Assembly: GCA_002361365.1 (NCBI GenBank)
Contig: DEST01000115.1
Span: 1-61,140 of the forward strand
Reading direction: 5' to 3'
Source: Alphaproteobacteria bacterium UBA3307
Lineage (GTDB): Bacteria > Pseudomonadota > Alphaproteobacteria > RF32 > CAG-239
DNA: 61,140 bases
The notes below the pieces were generated by a model that was not told where the DNA came from, made no database searches, and saw only the letters and a list, made by a program, of their open reading frames with translations. This document shows, piece after piece, positions 17,056-27,898 of this stretch (positions within the stretch are counted from its first letter, which is position 1; each line of letters begins with the position of its first letter). The position numbers were made by a program, and so were the translations under genes.

Positions 17056-17089
17056 TTTTTTCTCCTAAAACATTTTTCACTACATTTTT

Positions 17090-17138
17090 ATAATATCACA
17101 TTTTTGAGCGAATTTGTGTTAAACTTTTGTTACATTTG
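17090..17138 (-). promoter_or_regulatory. Predicted T4SS operon promoter with the same phased repeat (TGTAACA-N4-TTTAACA) and a TATTAT -10
   Basis: The minus strand reads AAATGTAACAAAAGTTTAACAC-N-TGTGATATTAT. It lies about 62 bp upstream of the ATG at 17055. Confidence 0.55.
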
Positions 17139-17425
17139 ACAAGTCCACGTCGAGATACGCTACGGCTCATCTTTTCGCGCCTAAATGCATGCGTATTATA
17201 TAAGTACGTTACCATAATAACTCGCAAAAGTAAATAAAATGTAAAAATATATAACAGCTGTTTTTTTATGGCTTTATATAATAAATTTATTGTTTTGCCG
17301 CGTGTTCAGCTTTTCTGATTTCCATTAACTGTATTTTAACACTATTCGTTGTATCTTCAAACAAAAGAGTGGGGTAACTGTCACTATTTTGTGGCGTTAT
17401 TCATTGATTCAACAGGATTTTTGAT

Positions 17426-19105
17426 ATGCCGAAACCGGGATTGAAATATTTTATAGGAAGTTTTTTGTTGTCTTTGGCAGCTGTTTTTGTGGCAACTAAG
17501 GCATATTTGGTGGTTATGTGGTCTGAGCAAGAGCAAGAAAAGGTTCTGGCAGCAGTCAAGCCACAAGATATAGAGTTGTTTGCGCCAACCGAAGAAAATG
17601 ACCCTATTTATGAGAAATATCAACAAATCACACAAATTGAACAGCCGCTGGAGGAATCTGATGCAGAAACAATATCTGAGGTTTCAGCACAAGAATTGGC
17701 GCTTGGTGATTATGCCGACGAGATACTTTATACGCCGGAAAACGATGAATCGGCTGAATTTGCAGAAGACGAATCCACTGTTATCTCGCAAAATGAGTCT
17801 TCAGCACCTGAAACAGAAATTATTGATGCTGATAATGTTGATAATTCTGATGATGAAGAATTACAAATTGCCGATGCACAAAGTGCGCCGGTATTTATGA
17901 TTCCGCTCAAGCACAACTTTAATATAGAAGGTGGAAATGTTACTGTTTCCGATTCTGCCGGCAATGGACAAATTGCATTGGCATCGCACGATGTCAGTCT
18001 TTATAATTTGGGCACAGAAAATCAGGCAGATGTGACAGAACCATTGACGGCGAACGCCGAGCAGAACATTGCCGATGACAACTCTCCGATTGAGAGTCAA
18101 ACCAACCAGTCAGAAACTTTAACAGCGGAGGTTTCTACGCCGCAAATGGCTGATGATAACCCATGGGAAGTTGCCGAAGTTGCCAACAAGTATACTCCCA
18201 AAAATTCGCTCAGCGTTAAAAGTGAACCGGAAAAAGCCGATGTTGCTTTGCCGGCACAAGAAGCTAAGACCGCGTATAAAATGCAGAAAAACATACTAAT
18301 TCCGATTCCGGAAGATATTATGAATGATGAAAATCTTACTCCGCAATTTTCAACTTCTGAAGAGAATCTGAAATTAGAAGAAGAATTGCGTGCCAAACAT
18401 AAGCTTCCTACATTACCGGCATCACCAACAACAAAACCGGCGGCTGACGGAAATGATACGAATATCAATACCGACAATCCGGAGAAAGTTGCTCCGCAAT
18501 CGTTGCCGCAACCGATACGGATTCCGAGTGATGACACAGAAAAAGATTTTGATGAAGATGAGGAAACACAAAACGATGCCGATGCTCAAACCTCTAAAAA
18601 TCTGACCGAGAGTGTGGCTGCGTGGTTTTCCGGTATAAAAAATAAAGTCACGACAAATACGAATCAGGAGAAAACTACGGACAATTCGGGTATTGCCGGT
18701 GAAAAATCGGCAAAATCAGGTACCTCTATCTTTCAGCGTTTGCTCGGTACTCCGGAGCCGGAAAAAAATATTGCACCGAGTGAATTAAAAATTACGTTTC
18801 AGCCTAATCGGGCAGAAATTTCTGGTCAGACCTTGGAATGGTTACGTGCCTTTGCTGACAATACATTAGAGAATGAAAATGTTGTGGTCGAGATTCGTGT
18901 TTCGCAATCCACACCGGCAGCAATACGCTACAAACGTTTGAAATTACTGTATAAGGTTTTGGCTGACAATGGAGTTGAGCCGATGAAAGTTAATACAATT
19001 TTTACCAATCGCGAGCCAAACTCGTTTATTATTAGAAATGTGCGTTATTCGTCTGAAGAAGAAATGGCAAAAGCCGTTGTCAAATGGGGAGATAATCCAT
19101 GGTAG
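17426..19105 (+). CDS. Membrane-anchored, highly acidic 559-aa protein with a weak OmpA/MotB-like C-terminal region. First gene of the pilus operon.
   Basis: N-terminal TM segment (FIGSFLLSLAAVFVATKAYLVVMW), a long D/E/S/N/P-rich region, and a C-terminal segment ITFQPNRAEISGQTLEWLRAFADNT...VVVEIRV...RLKLLYKVLADNGVEP. Confidence 0.45.
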   Translation: MPKPGLKYFIGSFLLSLAAVFVATKAYLVVMWSEQEQEKVLAAVKPQDIELFAPTEENDPIYEKYQQITQIEQPLEESDAETISEVSAQELALGDYADEILYTPENDESAEFAEDESTVISQNESSAPETEIIDADNVDNSDDEELQIADAQSAPVFMIPLKHNFNIEGGNVTVSDSAGNGQIALASHDVSLYNLGTENQADVTEPLTANAEQNIADDNSPIESQTNQSETLTAEVSTPQMADDNPWEVAEVANKYTPKNSLSVKSEPEKADVALPAQEAKTAYKMQKNILIPIPEDIMNDENLTPQFSTSEENLKLEEELRAKHKLPTLPASPTTKPAADGNDTNINTDNPEKVAPQSLPQPIRIPSDDTEKDFDEDEETQNDADAQTSKNLTESVAAWFSGIKNKVTTNTNQEKTTDNSGIAGEKSAKSGTSIFQRLLGTPEPEKNIAPSELKITFQPNRAEISGQTLEWLRAFADNTLENENVVVEIRVSQSTPAAIRYKRLKLLYKVLADNGVEPMKVNTIFTNREPNSFIIRNVRYSSEEEMAKAVVKWGDNPW

Positions 19106-19153
19106 CAACTTTGGCGGACACGCTCCGGTTTTAATCTGTTTAAGGAAAATACG

Positions 19154-26213: not shown

Positions 26214-26224
26214 GAGATTTTATT

Positions 26225-27346
26225 ATGCCTCAAGCCGAAAAAAGAAGTGCCTTTAATAAAGCAATGACAGCCACCAATAAATGGATGTTGATGTATGCAC
26301 AATTTATGTGCAAACTTTCAAACAAAGGACGCTTGAAGGTTTATCGTAAACTGGCAGCGCTGTTGCGCAACCGCTTTTCATTGATGAACGCACTTGATAT
26401 GATTTATAACGGCCTTACTGATGAAGGACAACACCCTAATGAGCCGATTGCCATTGCCATTAGTGCGTGGGGACGTGCTCTGCAAGAAGGTCATCCGTTT
26501 TCCGATGCGCTTAAAGGCTGGGCACCTGACCGTGAACGCTTAATGCTTTCCGTCGGTGATGTTTCAGATTTGGAAAGCGCTTTAATAAACTTGATTAAAG
26601 TTTCCGAAGGTTCTACCCGAATGATTCGCCCGATTGTCAGTGCTATTACATACCCTTCTTTCTTAATGATGATGGCTGTGCTGATTGTTTATGCAATCGG
26701 TGTATATATGGTACCGCCAATGCTAAGTGCCGCACCAACAACCGTTTGGACAGGTACTGCAAAAACTTTGGTCGACTTATCAGGCTGGATTCAGAAAAAC
26801 TGGCCGATTGCATTTGCATTTTTCCCAACCATTGGCGCTATTATTTATTTTACCATTGGGGTATGGACCGGCAAAATACGTGTCAAATTTGACCGAATCC
26901 CGCCGTGGTCATTGTATAAAATCTTTACCGGTATTACTTGGCTATTGGCACTTTCGGCATTAGTAAAGGGCGGTGTACCGGTTTCAGTGGCATTAACATC
27001 CTTGCGCAAAGACTCCAGTCGATACCTTAAAGAAAGAATCGACGGAGCATTGTTTCATATTAAAAACGGTGATAACTTGGGACAAGCTTTAGGTAAAGCC
27101 AAAATGGAATTTCCGGACAAGCAAATTATTGCCGACTTAAAGGTATATTCCGAATTGGATAACTTTGAAGAAGCGCTTGATAAGTTGGCTAATGAATGGC
27201 TTGAAGATTCAGTTTATTTAATTGAACAAAAAGCCGAAGTAATGAATATTGTGGCAATGTTGTTTGTGGCAGGCATTATTGCTTGGGCGGTATTTGGCAC
27301 ATTTGATATGCAAGACCAAATCACAAGTTCTATGGGTAAAGGATAA
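26225..27346 (+). CDS. GspF/PilC-family polytopic platform protein (R64 PilR-like)
   Basis: 373 aa. Two repeated helical cytoplasmic regions separated by TM segments. Lies directly after the ATPase. Confidence 0.75.
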   Translation: MPQAEKRSAFNKAMTATNKWMLMYAQFMCKLSNKGRLKVYRKLAALLRNRFSLMNALDMIYNGLTDEGQHPNEPIAIAISAWGRALQEGHPFSDALKGWAPDRERLMLSVGDVSDLESALINLIKVSEGSTRMIRPIVSAITYPSFLMMMAVLIVYAIGVYMVPPMLSAAPTTVWTGTAKTLVDLSGWIQKNWPIAFAFFPTIGAIIYFTIGVWTGKIRVKFDRIPPWSLYKIFTGITWLLALSALVKGGVPVSVALTSLRKDSSRYLKERIDGALFHIKNGDNLGQALGKAKMEFPDKQIIADLKVYSELDNFEEALDKLANEWLEDSVYLIEQKAEVMNIVAMLFVAGIIAWAVFGTFDMQDQITSSMGKG

Positions 27347-27349
27347 AAA

Positions 27350-27898
27350 ATGAACAAGTTGTATATTAACCTCAAAAAAGTTCCGTCCGTCCGTCTGAGC
27401 AGCGTGGCGTTCGGAGTTTTTCTGTTGATTGCTTGTGCCACACTGAGTTATGCTCTGTTTCATAATCCGCATCAGGAAATACATACACAAATTTTTAAAA
27501 CAGCAGAAAATATCAGGCACTATTATCGTGACCAACCGAGTTATTGGAAACTTTCTACCCAATCTGCCACTGAAGATAAGCTTATTACAGCCGATTTGTT
27601 GAAGCAAAAGGACTTTAAATTGCTTATCGGACAAGGGCAAAACGGAGATGTTTGTATGCCTAATGATATCGGTTTTGATATTGTGCTTAAAAACTTAAGT
27701 AAATCCGCTTGTATCAATCTGAGTGAACTTACGGTCAGCAAATCTGAGCAACTCGGGTTGCAAAAAATCAGCATTATCAACAGTGAGAGACAAACCGAAT
27801 TTGCTTGGGGCAGTGAGAATCCATTGCCTATAAAACGTTACGCCACCCGCAAACTTTGCGCTTCCTCCGGCAATACGCTGGTTTGGAGCTTTAAATAA
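27350..27898 (+). CDS. Pilin-like protein without a canonical prepilin cleavage site (182 aa)
   Basis: N-terminal TM anchor (VAFGVFLLIACATLSYALF). The C-terminal pattern LKNLSKSACINLSE...KLCASSGNTLVWSF parallels the two prepilins at 32701 and 33272. Confidence 0.45.
   Translation: MNKLYINLKKVPSVRLSSVAFGVFLLIACATLSYALFHNPHQEIHTQIFKTAENIRHYYRDQPSYWKLSTQSATEDKLITADLLKQKDFKLLIGQGQNGDVCMPNDIGFDIVLKNLSKSACINLSELTVSKSEQLGLQKISIINSERQTEFAWGSENPLPIKRYATRKLCASSGNTLVWSFK

What the first reader, a model, noticed from the sequence alone, without database searches (positions are those of the whole stretch)
17056..27898. Type IVb pilus assembly operon (R64 pilL-N-O-P-Q-R order) placed back-to-back with a VirB/rvh-type T4SS
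The plus-strand operon encodes, in order:
- an acidic membrane protein
- a TcpQ/PilL-like lipoprotein
- a PilN/BfpB-type lipoprotein secretin
- a PilO-like protein
- a PilP-like protein
- a GspE-family ATPase
- a GspF-family platform protein

From the lipoprotein onward this is the R64 thin-pilus order. It diverges from the T4SS operon across a 370-bp intergenic region.

Physical linkage of IVb pili with a T4SS is known for IncI plasmids and PAPI-1/ICEclc-type islands, where the T4SS is conjugative. Here the partner is an rvh-like system. The window contains no relaxase, integrase or other mobility gene.

The pairing suggests a combined attachment-plus-delivery module in a host-associated bacterium. 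No prepilin peptidase or PilM-like gene is present, and the structural pilins are displaced about 5 kb downstream.
Basis: partly seen in the sequence, partly recalled or inferred. Interest (0 to 1): 0.7.

Follow-up and report, generated by a model that had tools for sequence, protein, structure and literature searches.

The report
Chromosomal type IVb pilus beside T4SS
An uncultured gut and rumen alphaproteobacterium carries a complete, probably retractile, R64/BFP-type type IVb pilus operon on its chromosome, and in most of the related species examined this operon sits head-to-head with an unusually large VirB-type type IV secretion system, which suggests a fixed "grab-and-inject" apparatus rather than the plasmid mating device in which this pairing is already known.

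Summary
Positions 17426-27898 encode eight tightly packed plus-strand genes:
- a membrane protein with an OmpA-like C-terminus
- a TcpQ/PilL lipoprotein
- a PilN-type lipoprotein secretin
- PilO2/BfpC
- a PilP with a coiled-coil insert
- a BfpD-like ATPase
- a GspF platform

They diverge across 370 bp from virB2x3-virB3-virB4.

Corrections:
- The canonical prepilins (32701-33955) are separated from the operon by a lineage-specific three-gene insertion.
- The convergent ATPase at 34030-35034 is PilT-like and belongs to the pilus. The real VirB11 lies beyond VirB10, outside the window.
- The T4SS has rvh-like duplications (VirB2x3, VirB8-B7-B8) but no recognisable VirB6 paralogs and no VirD4. 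It has a 1425-aa VirB10.

The locus is chromosomal, and no relaxase or integrase was found. The head-to-head layout is kept in 55 of 63 related species loci. A CtrA-box consensus lies 101 nt upstream of the pilus operon. Functional coupling of pilus and T4SS is inferred, not shown. I rate it a new variant of a known kind, moderately interesting.

The parts
3..1079 (-). VirB9 (CagX family), N-terminal 359 aa. The gene runs off the left end of the window; the full protein is 524 aa in L083/L087.
   Evidence: Translation. Pfam CagX on the full product. TIGR02781 VirB9, E = 4e-9.
1096..2953 (-). VirB8b (1096-1845), VirB7-like 62-aa lipoprotein (1863-2051), VirB8a (2201-2953).
   Evidence: PF04335 VirB8, E = 3e-25 and 1e-9. 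The small ORF has the lipobox LILSAC.
2984..12619 (-). Five T4SS-operon proteins of unknown family: 1501, 448, 425, 507 and 321 aa. Four of the five show a hydrophobic N-terminal segment that reads as a signal peptide (in the 425-aa protein none was checked), with coiled-coil or Gly-rich stretches, and none has any other membrane-spanning segment.
   Evidence: No Pfam or NCBIfam hits. Hydropathy and sequences. Conserved only weakly (24-54% identity) in relatives.
12752..15468 (-). VirB4 (12752-15181) and a VirB3-like 96-aa membrane protein (15178-15468).
   Evidence: TIGR00929 VirB4_CagE, 379 bits. PF03135. 68-92% identity across related species. The VirB3 assignment rests on position, size and hydrophobic sequence only.
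15465..17055 (-). 149-aa secreted protein (15465-15914) and three VirB2/TrbC pilin paralogs (15948-16427, 16334-16720, 16723-17055).
   Evidence: PF04956 TrbC, E = 7.6e-5, 5e-12 and 9e-10.
17056..17425 (.). Divergent 370-bp control region. It holds a CtrA-box consensus TTAACTGTATTTTAAC (17325-17340, + strand, 101 nt before the first pilus gene). It also holds a second conserved element, TGTTACA (17128-17134), which in most relatives reads TGTAACAAAAAATTCA(C/T)A.
   Evidence: TTAA-N7-TTAAC occurs in 33 of 56 species' intergenic regions, always on the + strand, against 1.25 expected from shuffles. Second motif. The sigma-70 scan was uninformative.
17426..19105 (+). First pilus-operon gene: a bitopic membrane protein with a long acidic linker and a C-terminal OmpA/MotB/Pal-like domain. 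It is a probable peptidoglycan anchor.
   Evidence: One N-terminal TM segment. The C-terminal 110 aa are the conserved part. AlphaFold model has pLDDT above 90 over the domain. All 50 top Foldseek PDB hits are OmpA-C-like domains, E = 1e-5 to 1e-3. No sequence-level hit.
19154..19876 (+). PilL/TcpQ-like lipoprotein, the secretin partner.
   Evidence: PF10671 TcpQ, E = 1e-17, 64 bits against a cut-off of 27. Cys-containing signal peptide.
19863..21434 (+). PilN/BfpB-type lipoprotein secretin.
   Evidence: TIGR02520, 267 bits (cut-off 287.65), far above all other secretin models. PF00263. Full-length 27% alignments to annotated PilN of IncI-type plasmids. Invariant A20-C21.
21457..22701 (+). PilO2/BfpC-family bitopic protein.
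   Evidence: PF06864, E = 2e-21. The N-domain matches BfpC 3VHJ, E = 4.5e-4. TM segment at 182-200.
22691..24463 (+). PilP-family protein enlarged by a low-complexity region and a roughly 200-aa coiled coil.
   Evidence: 33 of 34 orthologous segments hit TIGR03021 pilP_fam, best E = 4e-10. The window copy itself does not. Conserved blocks at residues 211-360 and 431-510.
24489..26213 (+). Pilus extension ATPase (PilQ/BfpD type).
   Evidence: PF00437, E = 4.6e-63. BfpD 8DZE scores 303 bits over residues 55-566; GspE scores 169. 35% identity to bfpD and to alphaproteobacterial type IVb ATPases.
26225..27346 (+). PilR/GspF-family platform protein.
   Evidence: PF00482, two domains, E = 1.8e-24. 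Four TM segments.
27350..27898 (+). Pilin-like protein in the pilS position. It has a bundlin/PilS-type globular domain and an N-terminal TM helix, but no Glu5. In this organism Ser stands where most orthologues have Gly.
   Evidence: The orthologue profile hits bundlin 1ZWT, E = 2e-4. 15 of 32 orthologues hit Pfam PilS and 11 of 32 hit Bundlin, best E = 2.7e-9. N-terminal alignment. The single-sequence model was too poor to use.
27999..32665 (+). Lineage-specific insertion: a small lipoprotein, ComM/YifB (Mg-chelatase-like) and an 895-aa Cys-rich secreted protein. It is not part of the conserved system.
   Evidence: Pfam. Found only in the same-organism contigs L001 and L002 (81 loci with secretin hits, L001-L082), and in none of the 80 related species loci.
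32701..33955 (+). Two canonical prepilin genes (32701-33267, 33272-33955). N-termini are MLKINQTG|RSMIEMLGVLAIIGVL and MKNSKQTQNG|RSMIEML..., that is, a short leader and Glu at +5.
   Evidence: Motif scan. Weak Bundlin and PilS hits, E = 6e-4 and 1.6e-3, below cut-off. A related pilin in L012 passes both cut-offs.
33976..34006 (.). Hairpin with a 12-bp stem between the convergent pilin and ATPase genes, a likely terminator.
34030..35034 (-). PilT-like hexameric ATPase, the probable retraction motor of the pilus. It is not VirB11.
   Evidence: pilT_fam scores 127 bits against 52 for VirB11. The best PDB matches are PilT at 85 bits and DotB at 80, with no VirB11. 35% identity (E = 1e-46) to the second ATPase inside the Bosea pANAM02 type IVb operon, against E = 1e-9 to this lineage's own VirB11. 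Convergent and within 10-100 nt of the pilin-like gene in about 27 species.

Best explanation
The region is a chromosomally fixed, vertically inherited type IVb pilus system of the R64/BFP kind in an uncultured gut and rumen alphaproteobacterium.

**Proposed mechanism.**
- The BfpD-like ATPase drives pilin polymerisation on the GspF-type platform.
- PilO2/BfpC and the coiled-coil PilP link the inner-membrane motor to the PilN lipoprotein secretin, helped by the TcpQ/PilL lipoprotein.
- The first gene product ties the machine to peptidoglycan through an OmpA-like domain.
- The filament is built from the two canonical prepilins. The Glu5-less bundlin-fold protein acts as an atypical or minor subunit.
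- The prepilins are processed by a peptidase encoded elsewhere.
- The convergent PilT-like ATPase retracts the filament.

**Proposed role.** The operon is divergently transcribed from an enlarged VirB-type T4SS, and this layout is kept in most related species. So the pilus most likely captures a target cell (host, protist or bacterium) and pulls it close, and the T4SS then acts on that cell. This is the role the thin pilus plays for IncI and PAPI-1 conjugation, but here it is attached to a non-mobile, VirB-type system. A CtrA-box consensus upstream suggests cell-cycle (CtrA) control of the pilus operon.

**Shown:** gene identities, order, chromosomal setting, conservation of the layout and of the motif.

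**Inferred:** assembly roles (by homology), retraction, CtrA control, and any functional coupling to the T4SS.
For: - Family assignments.
- OmpA-like fold of the first protein.
- PilT-like ATPase belongs to alphaproteobacterial type IVb modules.
- The separate VirB11 lies after VirB10.
- Conserved divergent layout: 55 of 63 species loci with at least 1.5 kb upstream have virB2 facing away. 51 of 55 loci with at least 5 kb upstream have VirB4. Secretin identity to the window copy goes down to 50% in the 80 loci kept.
- Chromosomal context without mobility genes.
- CtrA-box in 33 of 56 intergenic regions against 1.25 expected.
- Precedent that type IVb pili serve T4SS-mediated transfer by binding recipients: PMC5297154, PMC9045228.
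- An ankyrin-repeat protein in the window is the kind of protein often delivered by T4SSs to eukaryotic cells (my knowledge).
Against: - No experiment or expression data link the two machines.
- In 4-8 related species the pilus operon has unrelated housekeeping genes upstream instead of the T4SS, so the pairing is not obligatory.
- R64-type pili also occur without a neighbouring T4SS, in B. pseudomallei Tfp7 (PMC3984277) and in Bosea pANAM02 within 15 kb.
- No prepilin peptidase, VirD4 or VirB6 was found in the sequence available.
- The window's own PilP copy and its pilins do not pass family cut-offs by themselves.
- The pilin-like protein lacks Glu5, and in this organism also the Gly before the helix.
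Confidence: 0.55

Rival explanations
1. The two systems are neighbours for historical reasons only. On this view the type IVb pilus works on its own (adhesion to mucus, feed particles or other cells, microcolony formation, twitching or DNA uptake) and the T4SS has an unrelated job.
For: - R64-variant pili exist on chromosomes without a T4SS (PMC3984277).
- The Bosea pANAM02 operon has no T4SS within 15 kb.
- 4-8 related species have housekeeping genes rather than the T4SS upstream of the pilus operon.
- ComM, a protein linked to natural transformation (my knowledge), is inserted in the pilus cluster of this lineage.
Against: - The head-to-head layout survives in 87-93% of species loci, although secretin identity falls to 50% and the genes downstream of the cluster vary.
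- The ComM insertion was seen only in the window's own lineage.
- Every previously described physical linkage of a type IVb pilus with a T4SS is functional (PMC5297154, PMC9045228).
Confidence: 0.25
2. The 50-kb block is a domesticated or still active conjugation or DNA-transfer apparatus, an old integrative element. In it the pilus stabilises mating pairs as in IncI plasmids and PAPI-1, with the relaxase and coupling protein encoded elsewhere.
For: - All characterised type IVb-T4SS pairings are conjugative (PMC5297154, PMC9045228, PMC6232867).
- VirB-type systems are ancestrally conjugative (PMC3548315).
- VirD4 and a relaxase could lie outside the roughly 80 kb examined.
Against: - No relaxase, T4CP, integrase or repeats bounding the block in the window or in the 20 kb to its left.
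- Housekeeping genes flank the block on both sides: rpmH-rnpA-yidC, and uvrA, tgt and 6S RNA.
- The locus is found in many species-level genomes of this clade and keeps the same gene order around the secretin in most of the 80 loci compared.
- The T4SS carries giant, lineage-specific components (1425-aa VirB10; 1621- and 1501-aa proteins) unlike plasmid systems.
Confidence: 0.15
3. The pilus machinery acts mainly as a secretion device, as TCP does for TcpF or CFA/III does for CofJ. On this view it exports one of the neighbouring large secreted proteins rather than mediating contact.
For: - Some type IVb systems secrete soluble colonisation factors (my knowledge).
- Several large signal-peptide proteins are encoded nearby.
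- The pilin-like protein in the pilS slot is atypical.
Against: - The nearby secreted proteins belong to the T4SS operon on the other strand, or to a lineage-specific insertion.
- A dedicated PilT-like ATPase and canonical prepilins point to a dynamic filament.
Confidence: 0.05

Closest known systems
R64/IncI1 thin pilus (pilI-pilV) and the IncI2 TP114 pilus
   Same: Same order of core genes: PilL(TcpQ)-PilN-PilO-PilP-PilQ-PilR-pilin. PilN-type lipoprotein secretin, PF06864 PilO and TIGR03021 PilP family are all present. It is physically linked to a T4SS (PMC9045228).
   Different: Here the cluster is chromosomal and non-mobile.
- No PilM, PilT lytic transglycosylase, PilU peptidase or PilV/shufflon was detected.
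- It has an extra OmpA-like first gene, a PilP with a large coiled coil, and a PilT-like ATPase.
- The partner T4SS is VirB-type, not I-type (Dot/Icm-like).
- Identity to plasmid PilN is only about 27%.
PAPI-1 / SPI-7 / ICE-type pil clusters (pilL2N2O2P2Q2R2S2T2V2M2)
   Same: The operon starts with the PilL/TcpQ lipoprotein and lacks its own prepilin peptidase. The pilus serves a neighbouring T4SS (PMC3984277, PMC5297154).
   Different: Those clusters sit on integrative conjugative elements with a GI-type T4SS. Here VirB4 scores 379 bits to the VirB4/CagE model and 16 bits to the GI-type TraC model, and no integrase or relaxase was found.
Burkholderia pseudomallei Tfp7 (chromosomal R64-variant type IVb pilus)
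   Same: A chromosomal, vertically conserved R64-variant operon with a TcpQ protein instead of PilL and no peptidase in the operon (PMC3984277).
   Different: That paper does not describe an adjacent T4SS for Tfp7. Its gene order is reversed and rearranged. Its 'pilT2' belongs to the R64 pilT family, which in R64-type operons encodes a lytic transglycosylase rather than an ATPase (PMC6232867; my knowledge).
EPEC bundle-forming pilus (BfpB/C/D/E/F, bundlin)
   Same: The closest solved structures are BFP components: BfpD at 303 bits, BfpC N-domain at E = 4.5e-4, and bundlin at E = 2e-4 for the pilin-like family. BFP also has a second, retraction ATPase, BfpF (my knowledge).
   Different: BFP is plasmid-borne, is not linked to a T4SS, has a different gene order and has its own peptidase BfpP (my knowledge).
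Alphaproteobacterial megaplasmid type IVb clusters (e.g. Bosea sp. ANAM02 pANAM02)
   Same: TcpQ-PilN-PilO2-hypothetical-ATPase-GspF followed by a second roughly 335-aa ATPase that is 35% identical to the window's PilT-like protein.
   Different: In Bosea the second ATPase is co-directional and inside the operon. There is no OmpA-like first gene and no T4SS within 15 kb. It sits on a 692-kb replicon.
Rickettsiales vir homolog (rvh) T4SS
   Same: VirB-type parts with duplicated VirB8 flanking a VirB7-like lipoprotein, then VirB9-VirB10-VirB11. Several VirB2 paralogs. virB3-virB4 is followed by a run of large lineage-specific genes. No recognisable VirB5 or VirB1. The rvh features listed are from my knowledge of the rvh literature.
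   Different: - The large genes after VirB4 are not polytopic VirB6 paralogs.
- All parts form one contiguous cluster of about 35 kb.
- VirB10 is 1425 aa with repeat domains, and a 1621-aa repeat protein is inserted before it.
- VirD4 does not follow VirB11.
- No duplicate VirB4 or VirB9 was seen in the locus.

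Membership tests
Type IVb pilus, R64 thin-pilus variant | PilN-family lipoprotein secretin | tested here: inconclusive
   TIGR02520 scores 267 bits, just below its equivalog cut-off of 287.65, but 2.5 times the next secretin model. 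Full-length alignment to annotated PilN proteins. Conserved lipobox Cys. JGI and NCBI name some homologues PilN family.
Type IVb pilus, R64 thin-pilus variant | PilO2 (PF06864) protein | tested here: met
   PF06864 scores 76.8 bits against a cut-off of 26.7, over 379 residues. BfpC N-domain match.
Type IVb pilus, R64 thin-pilus variant | PilP (TIGR03021) protein | tested here: inconclusive
   The window copy gives no hit. 33 of 34 orthologues (33-75% identical over the compared segment) do hit, best E = 4e-10.
Type IVb pilus, R64 thin-pilus variant | PilL/TcpQ-domain lipoprotein preceding the secretin | tested here: met
   PF10671 scores 64.4 bits against a cut-off of 27.
Type IVb pilus, R64 thin-pilus variant | GspE-family extension ATPase and GspF-family platform | tested here: met
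   PF00437 at 213 bits and PF00482 at 86 bits. BfpD is the best structure match.
Type IVb pilus, R64 thin-pilus variant | PilS-type major prepilin (long leader, Gly-1, Glu5) | tested here: inconclusive
   The two canonical prepilins have short leaders and only sub-threshold Bundlin and PilS hits. The gene in the pilS slot has the fold family by orthologue hits but lacks Glu5.
Type IVb pilus, R64 thin-pilus variant | PilU prepilin peptidase, PilV adhesin with shufflon, PilM, PilT transglycosylase | tested here: not met
   None was detected by Pfam or NCBIfam in the window. No A24 motif in the window or 86 loci. These genes are also missing from some accepted members, PAPI-1 and Tfp7 (PMC3984277).
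rvh-type T4SS (Rickettsiales vir homolog) | Tandem array of enlarged polytopic VirB6 paralogs after VirB4 | tested here: not met
   The five proteins in that position have at most one hydrophobic N-terminal segment and no VirB6/TrbL hit.
rvh-type T4SS (Rickettsiales vir homolog) | Duplicated scaffold genes (VirB8a-VirB7-VirB8b-VirB9; extra VirB4 or VirB9 copies) and several VirB2 paralogs | tested here: inconclusive
   VirB8x2 around a VirB7-like lipoprotein, and VirB2x3, are present. No second VirB4 or VirB9 in the roughly 80 kb seen. The rest of the genome was not available.
rvh-type T4SS (Rickettsiales vir homolog) | virB10-virB11-virD4 operon end | tested here: not met
   VirB10 (1425 aa) and VirB11 (146 bits to TIGR02788) are followed by DUF3137 and then engB-yidC-rnpA-rpmH.
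Conjugative plasmid or ICE carrying a type IVb pilus plus T4SS | Relaxase, type IV coupling protein, integrase or replication genes, element boundaries | tested here: not met
   None in the 61-kb window or in the 20 kb to its left. Housekeeping genes lie on both sides. The locus is conserved in position relative to its neighbours in most species. The whole genome was not searched.
PilT/PilU retraction ATPase family | Hexameric secretion ATPase, about 330-400 aa, without the GspE N-terminal domains, scoring best to the PilT family | tested here: inconclusive
   pilT_fam is the best model at 127 bits but far below its cut-off of 319. DotB and TraJ score 82-88, VirB11 scores 52. PDB: PilT 85 bits, DotB 80 bits. 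Walker A, Walker B and His box are present, and a segment ARNIIKTGK resembles the PilT AIRNLIRE motif (sequence; the motif is from my knowledge).

The most novel reading that the evidence does not exclude
A large clade of common but uncultured gut and rumen Alphaproteobacteria (relatives of the secretin were found in 251 stretches across the species-representative genomes) carries a fixed 50-kb 'contact-and-inject' supercluster. In it a retractile type IVb pilus and a giant, VirB6-less, VirD4-less VirB-type T4SS are expressed from one shared control region containing a CtrA box. This would mean these bacteria live by obligate cell-to-cell interaction with host cells, gut protists or other bacteria, as epibionts, parasites or predators. 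It would be a lifestyle, and a pilus-T4SS partnership outside conjugation, that has not been described.
Probability: 0.3. Interest if true: 0.8.

Novelty: new variant of a known kind. Interest (0 to 1): 0.6.

Why it matters
Type IVb pili are known as partners of T4SSs only on conjugative plasmids and islands, where they find and hold recipient cells.

Here the same partnership appears hard-wired into the chromosome of a widespread, uncultured gut and rumen alphaproteobacterial lineage. It is attached to a VirB-type system with very unusual, enlarged parts. No DNA-transfer genes are in sight.

If the two machines work together, this gives a concrete hypothesis for how these poorly understood gut bacteria interact with other cells. 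It also gives a natural system for studying pilus-assisted protein or DNA delivery outside conjugation.

The CtrA-box and the conserved intergenic motif make regulation directly testable. The OmpA-like first gene, the coiled-coil PilP and the Glu5-less pilin-fold protein are new accessories of the type IVb machinery.

Tried and rejected
- **Exact look-up of the secretin.** Using the TTG start found nothing. The ATG-start ATPase and VirB8 look-ups worked.
- **VirB11 reading of 34030-35034.** Rejected: it scores 127 bits to PilT and 52 to VirB11, and a proper VirB11 follows VirB10.
- **VirB6 reading of the five proteins between VirB4 and VirB8.** Rejected on hydropathy and lack of hits. DUF3137 after VirB11 is polytopic but has no VirB6 signal.
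- **T2SS, type IVa, MSHA and Tad assignments.** Rejected by relative scores. For the secretin: GspD 53, PilQ 48, MshL 104, PilN 267. For the ATPase: GspE 169, PilB/PilF about 155, CpaF not listed, BfpD 303.
- **Sequence searches for the first protein's C-terminal domain.** Both PDB profile and Pfam found nothing significant; CpaD reached only E = 0.03. Only the structure search resolved it.
- **Single-sequence model of the pilin-like protein.** It had pLDDT 53 and was not used.
- **Prepilin peptidase motif scan.** No hit in the window or 86 loci.
- **Sigma-70 promoter scan of the intergenic region.** No better than shuffles.
- **Direct BLASTP of the window's PilP and pilin-like proteins against the Bosea neighbours.** Nothing found.
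- **Literature searches.** Searches for RF32/CAG-239 with type IV secretion, Rickettsiales, or type IV pili found no genomic description of this system.
- **Taxon name.** Assignment of the clade to GTDB order RF32 / family CAG-239 is my recollection from record names such as 'Azospirillum sp. 51_20'. It was not tested.

Full report
**1. What is in the sequence**

On the plus strand eight genes are packed with gaps or overlaps of 3-48 nt:

| Coordinates | Product | Evidence |
|---|---|---|
| 17426-19105 | 559-aa acidic bitopic protein | no family hit |
| 19154-19876 | lipoprotein with a TcpQ domain | PF10671, 64 bits, cut-off 27 |
| 19863-21434 | lipoprotein secretin | TIGR02520 'PilN family type IVB', 267 bits, cut-off 287.65; next best MshL 104, GspD 53, PilQ 48 |
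| 21457-22701 | PilO2 | PF06864, 77 bits |
| 22691-24463 | 590-aa coiled-coil protein | see section 2 |
| 24489-26213 | GspE-family ATPase | PF00437 |
| 26225-27346 | GspF-family platform | PF00482 |

The 370-bp gap 17056-17425 separates this operon from three VirB2/TrbC paralogs, a VirB3-like gene and VirB4 on the minus strand.

**2. Refining the pilus genes**

- **Extension ATPase.** Its best solved-structure match is BfpD of the EPEC bundle-forming pilus, at 303 bits over residues 55-566. GspE scores 169 and PilF/PilB about 155 or less.
- **PilO.** The N-domain matches BfpC (3VHJ, E = 4.5e-4). This agrees with the published PilO2/BfpC relationship (PMC3984277).
- **590-aa protein.** It gives no PilP hit itself. 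However, 33 of 34 orthologous segments from related species match TIGR03021 (IncI-type PilP), best E = 4e-10. It is therefore a PilP enlarged by a low-complexity region and a conserved coiled coil.
- **182-aa protein.**
  - A profile of its orthologues hits bundlin (1ZWT, E = 2e-4).
  - 15 of 32 orthologues hit Pfam PilS and 11 of 32 hit Bundlin, best E = 2.7e-9.
  - It is a type IVb pilin-fold protein sitting exactly where pilS sits in R64.
  - Its N-terminus has a charged leader and one hydrophobic helix, but no Glu5. In this organism Ser replaces the Gly that most orthologues have before the helix.
  - Whether it is processed, and whether it is a major or minor subunit, is open.
- **First gene.** The only strongly conserved part is the C-terminal 110 residues. 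Sequence searches failed. An AlphaFold model built with 34 homologues has pLDDT above 90 over the domain. All 50 best Foldseek matches in the PDB are OmpA-C/MotB/Pal-type peptidoglycan-binding domains, with E from 1e-5 to 1e-3. I read it as a peptidoglycan anchor of the machine. Whether it really binds peptidoglycan was not tested.

**3. Pilins, retraction ATPase, peptidase**

Two canonical prepilin genes lie at 32701-33267 and 33272-33955. Their N-termini are MLKINQTG|RSMIEMLGVLAIIGVL and MKNSKQTQNG|RSMIEML, with Glu at +5. Their own Bundlin and PilS hits are sub-threshold. A related pilin next to the operon in L012 passes both Pfam cut-offs.

Between the 182-aa gene and these prepilins lie a small lipoprotein, ComM and an 895-aa Cys-rich secreted protein. 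tblastn against 80 related species loci finds these three only in contigs of the same organism. So the 'displacement' of the pilins is a lineage-specific insertion.

A 12-bp-stem hairpin (33976-34006) follows the prepilins. Then comes a convergent 334-aa ATPase (34030-35034). It is not VirB11:
- pilT_fam scores 127 bits, TraJ 88, DotB 82 and VirB11 52.
- The best PDB matches are PilT at 85 bits and DotB at 80. No VirB11 appears in the list.
- It is 35% identical (E = 1e-46) to the second ATPase encoded inside the type IVb operon of Bosea pANAM02. It matches the lineage's own VirB11 only around the P-loop, at E = 1e-9.
- In about 27 related species it lies 10-100 nt from the end of the pilin-like gene, in convergent orientation.

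I therefore assign it to the pilus as the probable retraction motor. It scores far below the PilT family cut-off, so membership of that family is not established.

No prepilin peptidase was found in the window by Pfam. A GxGD-K motif scan of the window and 86 related loci also found none. Accepted R64-variant systems such as PAPI-1 and B. pseudomallei Tfp7 also lack one and borrow it (PMC3984277).

**4. The T4SS**

Walking left with exact-protein look-ups shows the minus-strand operon in this order:
- VirB2x3
- a 149-aa secreted protein
- VirB3-like
- VirB4
- five proteins of 321, 507, 425, 448 and 1501 aa
- VirB8a
- a 62-aa VirB7-like lipoprotein (1863-2051)
- VirB8b
- VirB9 (524 aa; the window starts inside it)
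- a 1621-aa single-pass repeat protein
- VirB10 of 1425 aa
- VirB11 (TIGR02788, 146 bits)
- DUF3137

After that come engB, yidC, rnpA, rpmH and a GyrB-family (GyrB/ParE) topoisomerase gene.

The five proteins that occupy the place of the rvh VirB6 paralogs have at most one hydrophobic N-terminal segment plus coiled-coil or Gly-rich regions. They have no other membrane-spanning segment and no family hit. No VirD4, VirB6, VirB5 or VirB1 was recognised in about 80 kb.

The duplicated VirB8 around VirB7 and the multiple VirB2 copies resemble rvh (my knowledge of that system). The defining VirB6 array and the virB11-virD4 ending are not met. The accurate label is 'enlarged VirB-type (P-type) T4SS with some rvh-like duplications'.

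It is clearly not the I-type or GI-type system that accompanies type IVb pili on IncI and IncM-like plasmids or on PAPI-1 (PMC6232867, PMC5297154).

**5. Setting and distribution**

The window also encodes uvrA, queH, tgt, class II aldolase, ABC-F, an LD-carboxypeptidase and 6S RNA. No relaxase, integrase or replication gene was seen. The sequence matches human and animal gut metagenome contigs exactly.

A pattern scan of one genome per GTDB species found 251 stretches that encode a relative of the secretin. The 80 best loci were kept for comparison. Nearly all are gut, faecal or rumen MAGs labelled Alphaproteobacteria, 'uncultured Azospirillum', Rhodospirillaceae and the like, and a few carry obviously mis-binned names. 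From the record names I believe this is GTDB order RF32 / family CAG-239, but I could not test that.

In the 80 best loci, where secretin identity to the window copy runs from 65% down to 50%:
- The pilus genes keep their order.
- 55 of 63 loci with at least 1.5 kb of upstream sequence have virB2 facing away from the first pilus gene.
- 51 of 55 loci with at least 5 kb upstream have VirB4.
- In the exceptions the upstream genes are unrelated: flavin reductase, polyprenyl synthetase, a PfkB kinase, or a pilin.

So the pairing is strongly but not absolutely conserved.

**6. The shared control region**

Two elements are conserved.
- **CtrA-box.** TTAACTGTATTTTAAC (17325-17340) fits the alphaproteobacterial CtrA-box consensus TTAA-N7-TTAAC (the consensus is from my knowledge). 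It lies 101 nt before the first pilus gene. A full match, always in the direction of the pilus operon and usually about 100 nt upstream, is found in 33 of 56 species. Shuffled sequences give 1.25 on average and at most 5.
- **Second element.** TGTAACAAAAAATTCA(C/T)A lies 110-135 nt from virB2 in about 40 species. It is inverted and closer, at about 70-82 nt, in the window's subclade. Its binding factor is unknown.

These support regulated, possibly coordinated, expression. They do not prove it. A generic sigma-70 scan was uninformative.

**7. Interpretation**

What is shown:
- a complete type IVb assembly machine of the R64/BFP kind with new accessories
- a chromosomal, non-mobile context
- conserved head-to-head linkage with an atypical VirB-type T4SS

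What is inferred:
- the pilus extends and retracts
- it binds a target cell and brings it within reach of the T4SS, as the thin pili of IncI2 TP114 and PAPI-1 do for conjugation (PMC9045228, PMC5297154)
- CtrA controls it

The main rival is that the two systems are merely neighbours and the pilus serves adhesion or DNA uptake. That reading is favoured by the few species without linkage and by stand-alone R64-variant pili elsewhere (PMC3984277). A domesticated conjugation module is less likely given the flanks and the absence of transfer genes. It cannot be excluded without whole genomes.

**8. Novelty and score**

All components belong to known kinds. Chromosomal R64-variant pili, and pilus operons without a peptidase, are already known.

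I could not find the following in the searchable literature:
- a fixed, non-mobile pairing of a type IVb pilus with a VirB-type T4SS across a whole lineage of gut bacteria
- the accessories: the OmpA-like first gene, the coiled-coil PilP, the Glu5-less pilin-fold protein and the PilT-like ATPase
- the giant T4SS parts

I rate it a new variant of a known kind, with interest 0.6.

Noticed in passing
window 17325-17340 (+): A CtrA-box consensus, TTAACTGTATTTTAAC (TTAA-N7-TTAAC), lies 101 nt upstream of the first pilus gene. It is conserved, in the same orientation, in 33 of 56 related species. Shuffles give 1.25 expected.
   Followed up: partly
window 17125-17141; intergenic regions of L003-L082: A second conserved intergenic element, TGTAACAAAAAATTCA(C/T)A, lies about 110-135 nt from virB2 in about 40 of 56 species. 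In the window's subclade it is inverted and closer, at about 70-82 nt. No regulator is known for it.
   Followed up: partly
window 2984-12619 (-); L087:5133-14278: The T4SS has very unusual parts. Five secreted coiled-coil proteins (321-1501 aa) stand where VirB6 would be expected. There is also a 1621-aa single-pass repeat protein (YD-repeat-like hits) and a 1425-aa VirB10 with Bflower/DUF3659 repeat domains. No VirB6 or VirD4 was seen in about 80 kb.
   Followed up: partly
window 10112-10351 and 11294-11533: A 240-nt direct repeat (91% identical) encodes nearly the same roughly 75-residue segment at both ends of the 507-aa T4SS-operon protein.
   Followed up: no
window 27999-32665: A lineage-specific insertion sits inside the pilus cluster: a small lipoprotein, ComM/YifB, and an 895-aa Cys-rich secreted protein. 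The last has a tandem 129-nt repeat (30563-30820) and a weak trypsin-like C-terminus (E = 0.007).
   Followed up: partly
window 60074-60952 (-): An ankyrin-repeat protein (PF12796, E = 6e-18). Proteins of this type are often T4SS substrates aimed at eukaryotic cells in other bacteria (my knowledge).
   Followed up: no
window 59836-59992 (-): 6S RNA (RF00013, 52 bits, above the gathering score).
   Followed up: no
window 37459-39693 (+), about 38-40 kb: The lowest-GC stretch of the window (0.32). It encodes a fused family-2 glycosyltransferase and CDP-glycerol glycerophosphotransferase (teichoic-acid-type enzyme), which is unexpected in an alphaproteobacterium.
   Followed up: no
L087:14289-19589: The T4SS operon ends next to engB-yidC-rnpA-rpmH and a GyrB-family (GyrB/ParE) topoisomerase gene, a core chromosomal neighbourhood.
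   Followed up: partly
L013, L018, L021, L023, L052 (record titles): Several GTDB species-representative records that carry this alphaproteobacterial locus are titled Ruminococcus gnavus, Bacteroidaceae, Eubacteriales or Lachnospiraceae. These look like mislabelled or mis-binned MAGs.
   Followed up: no
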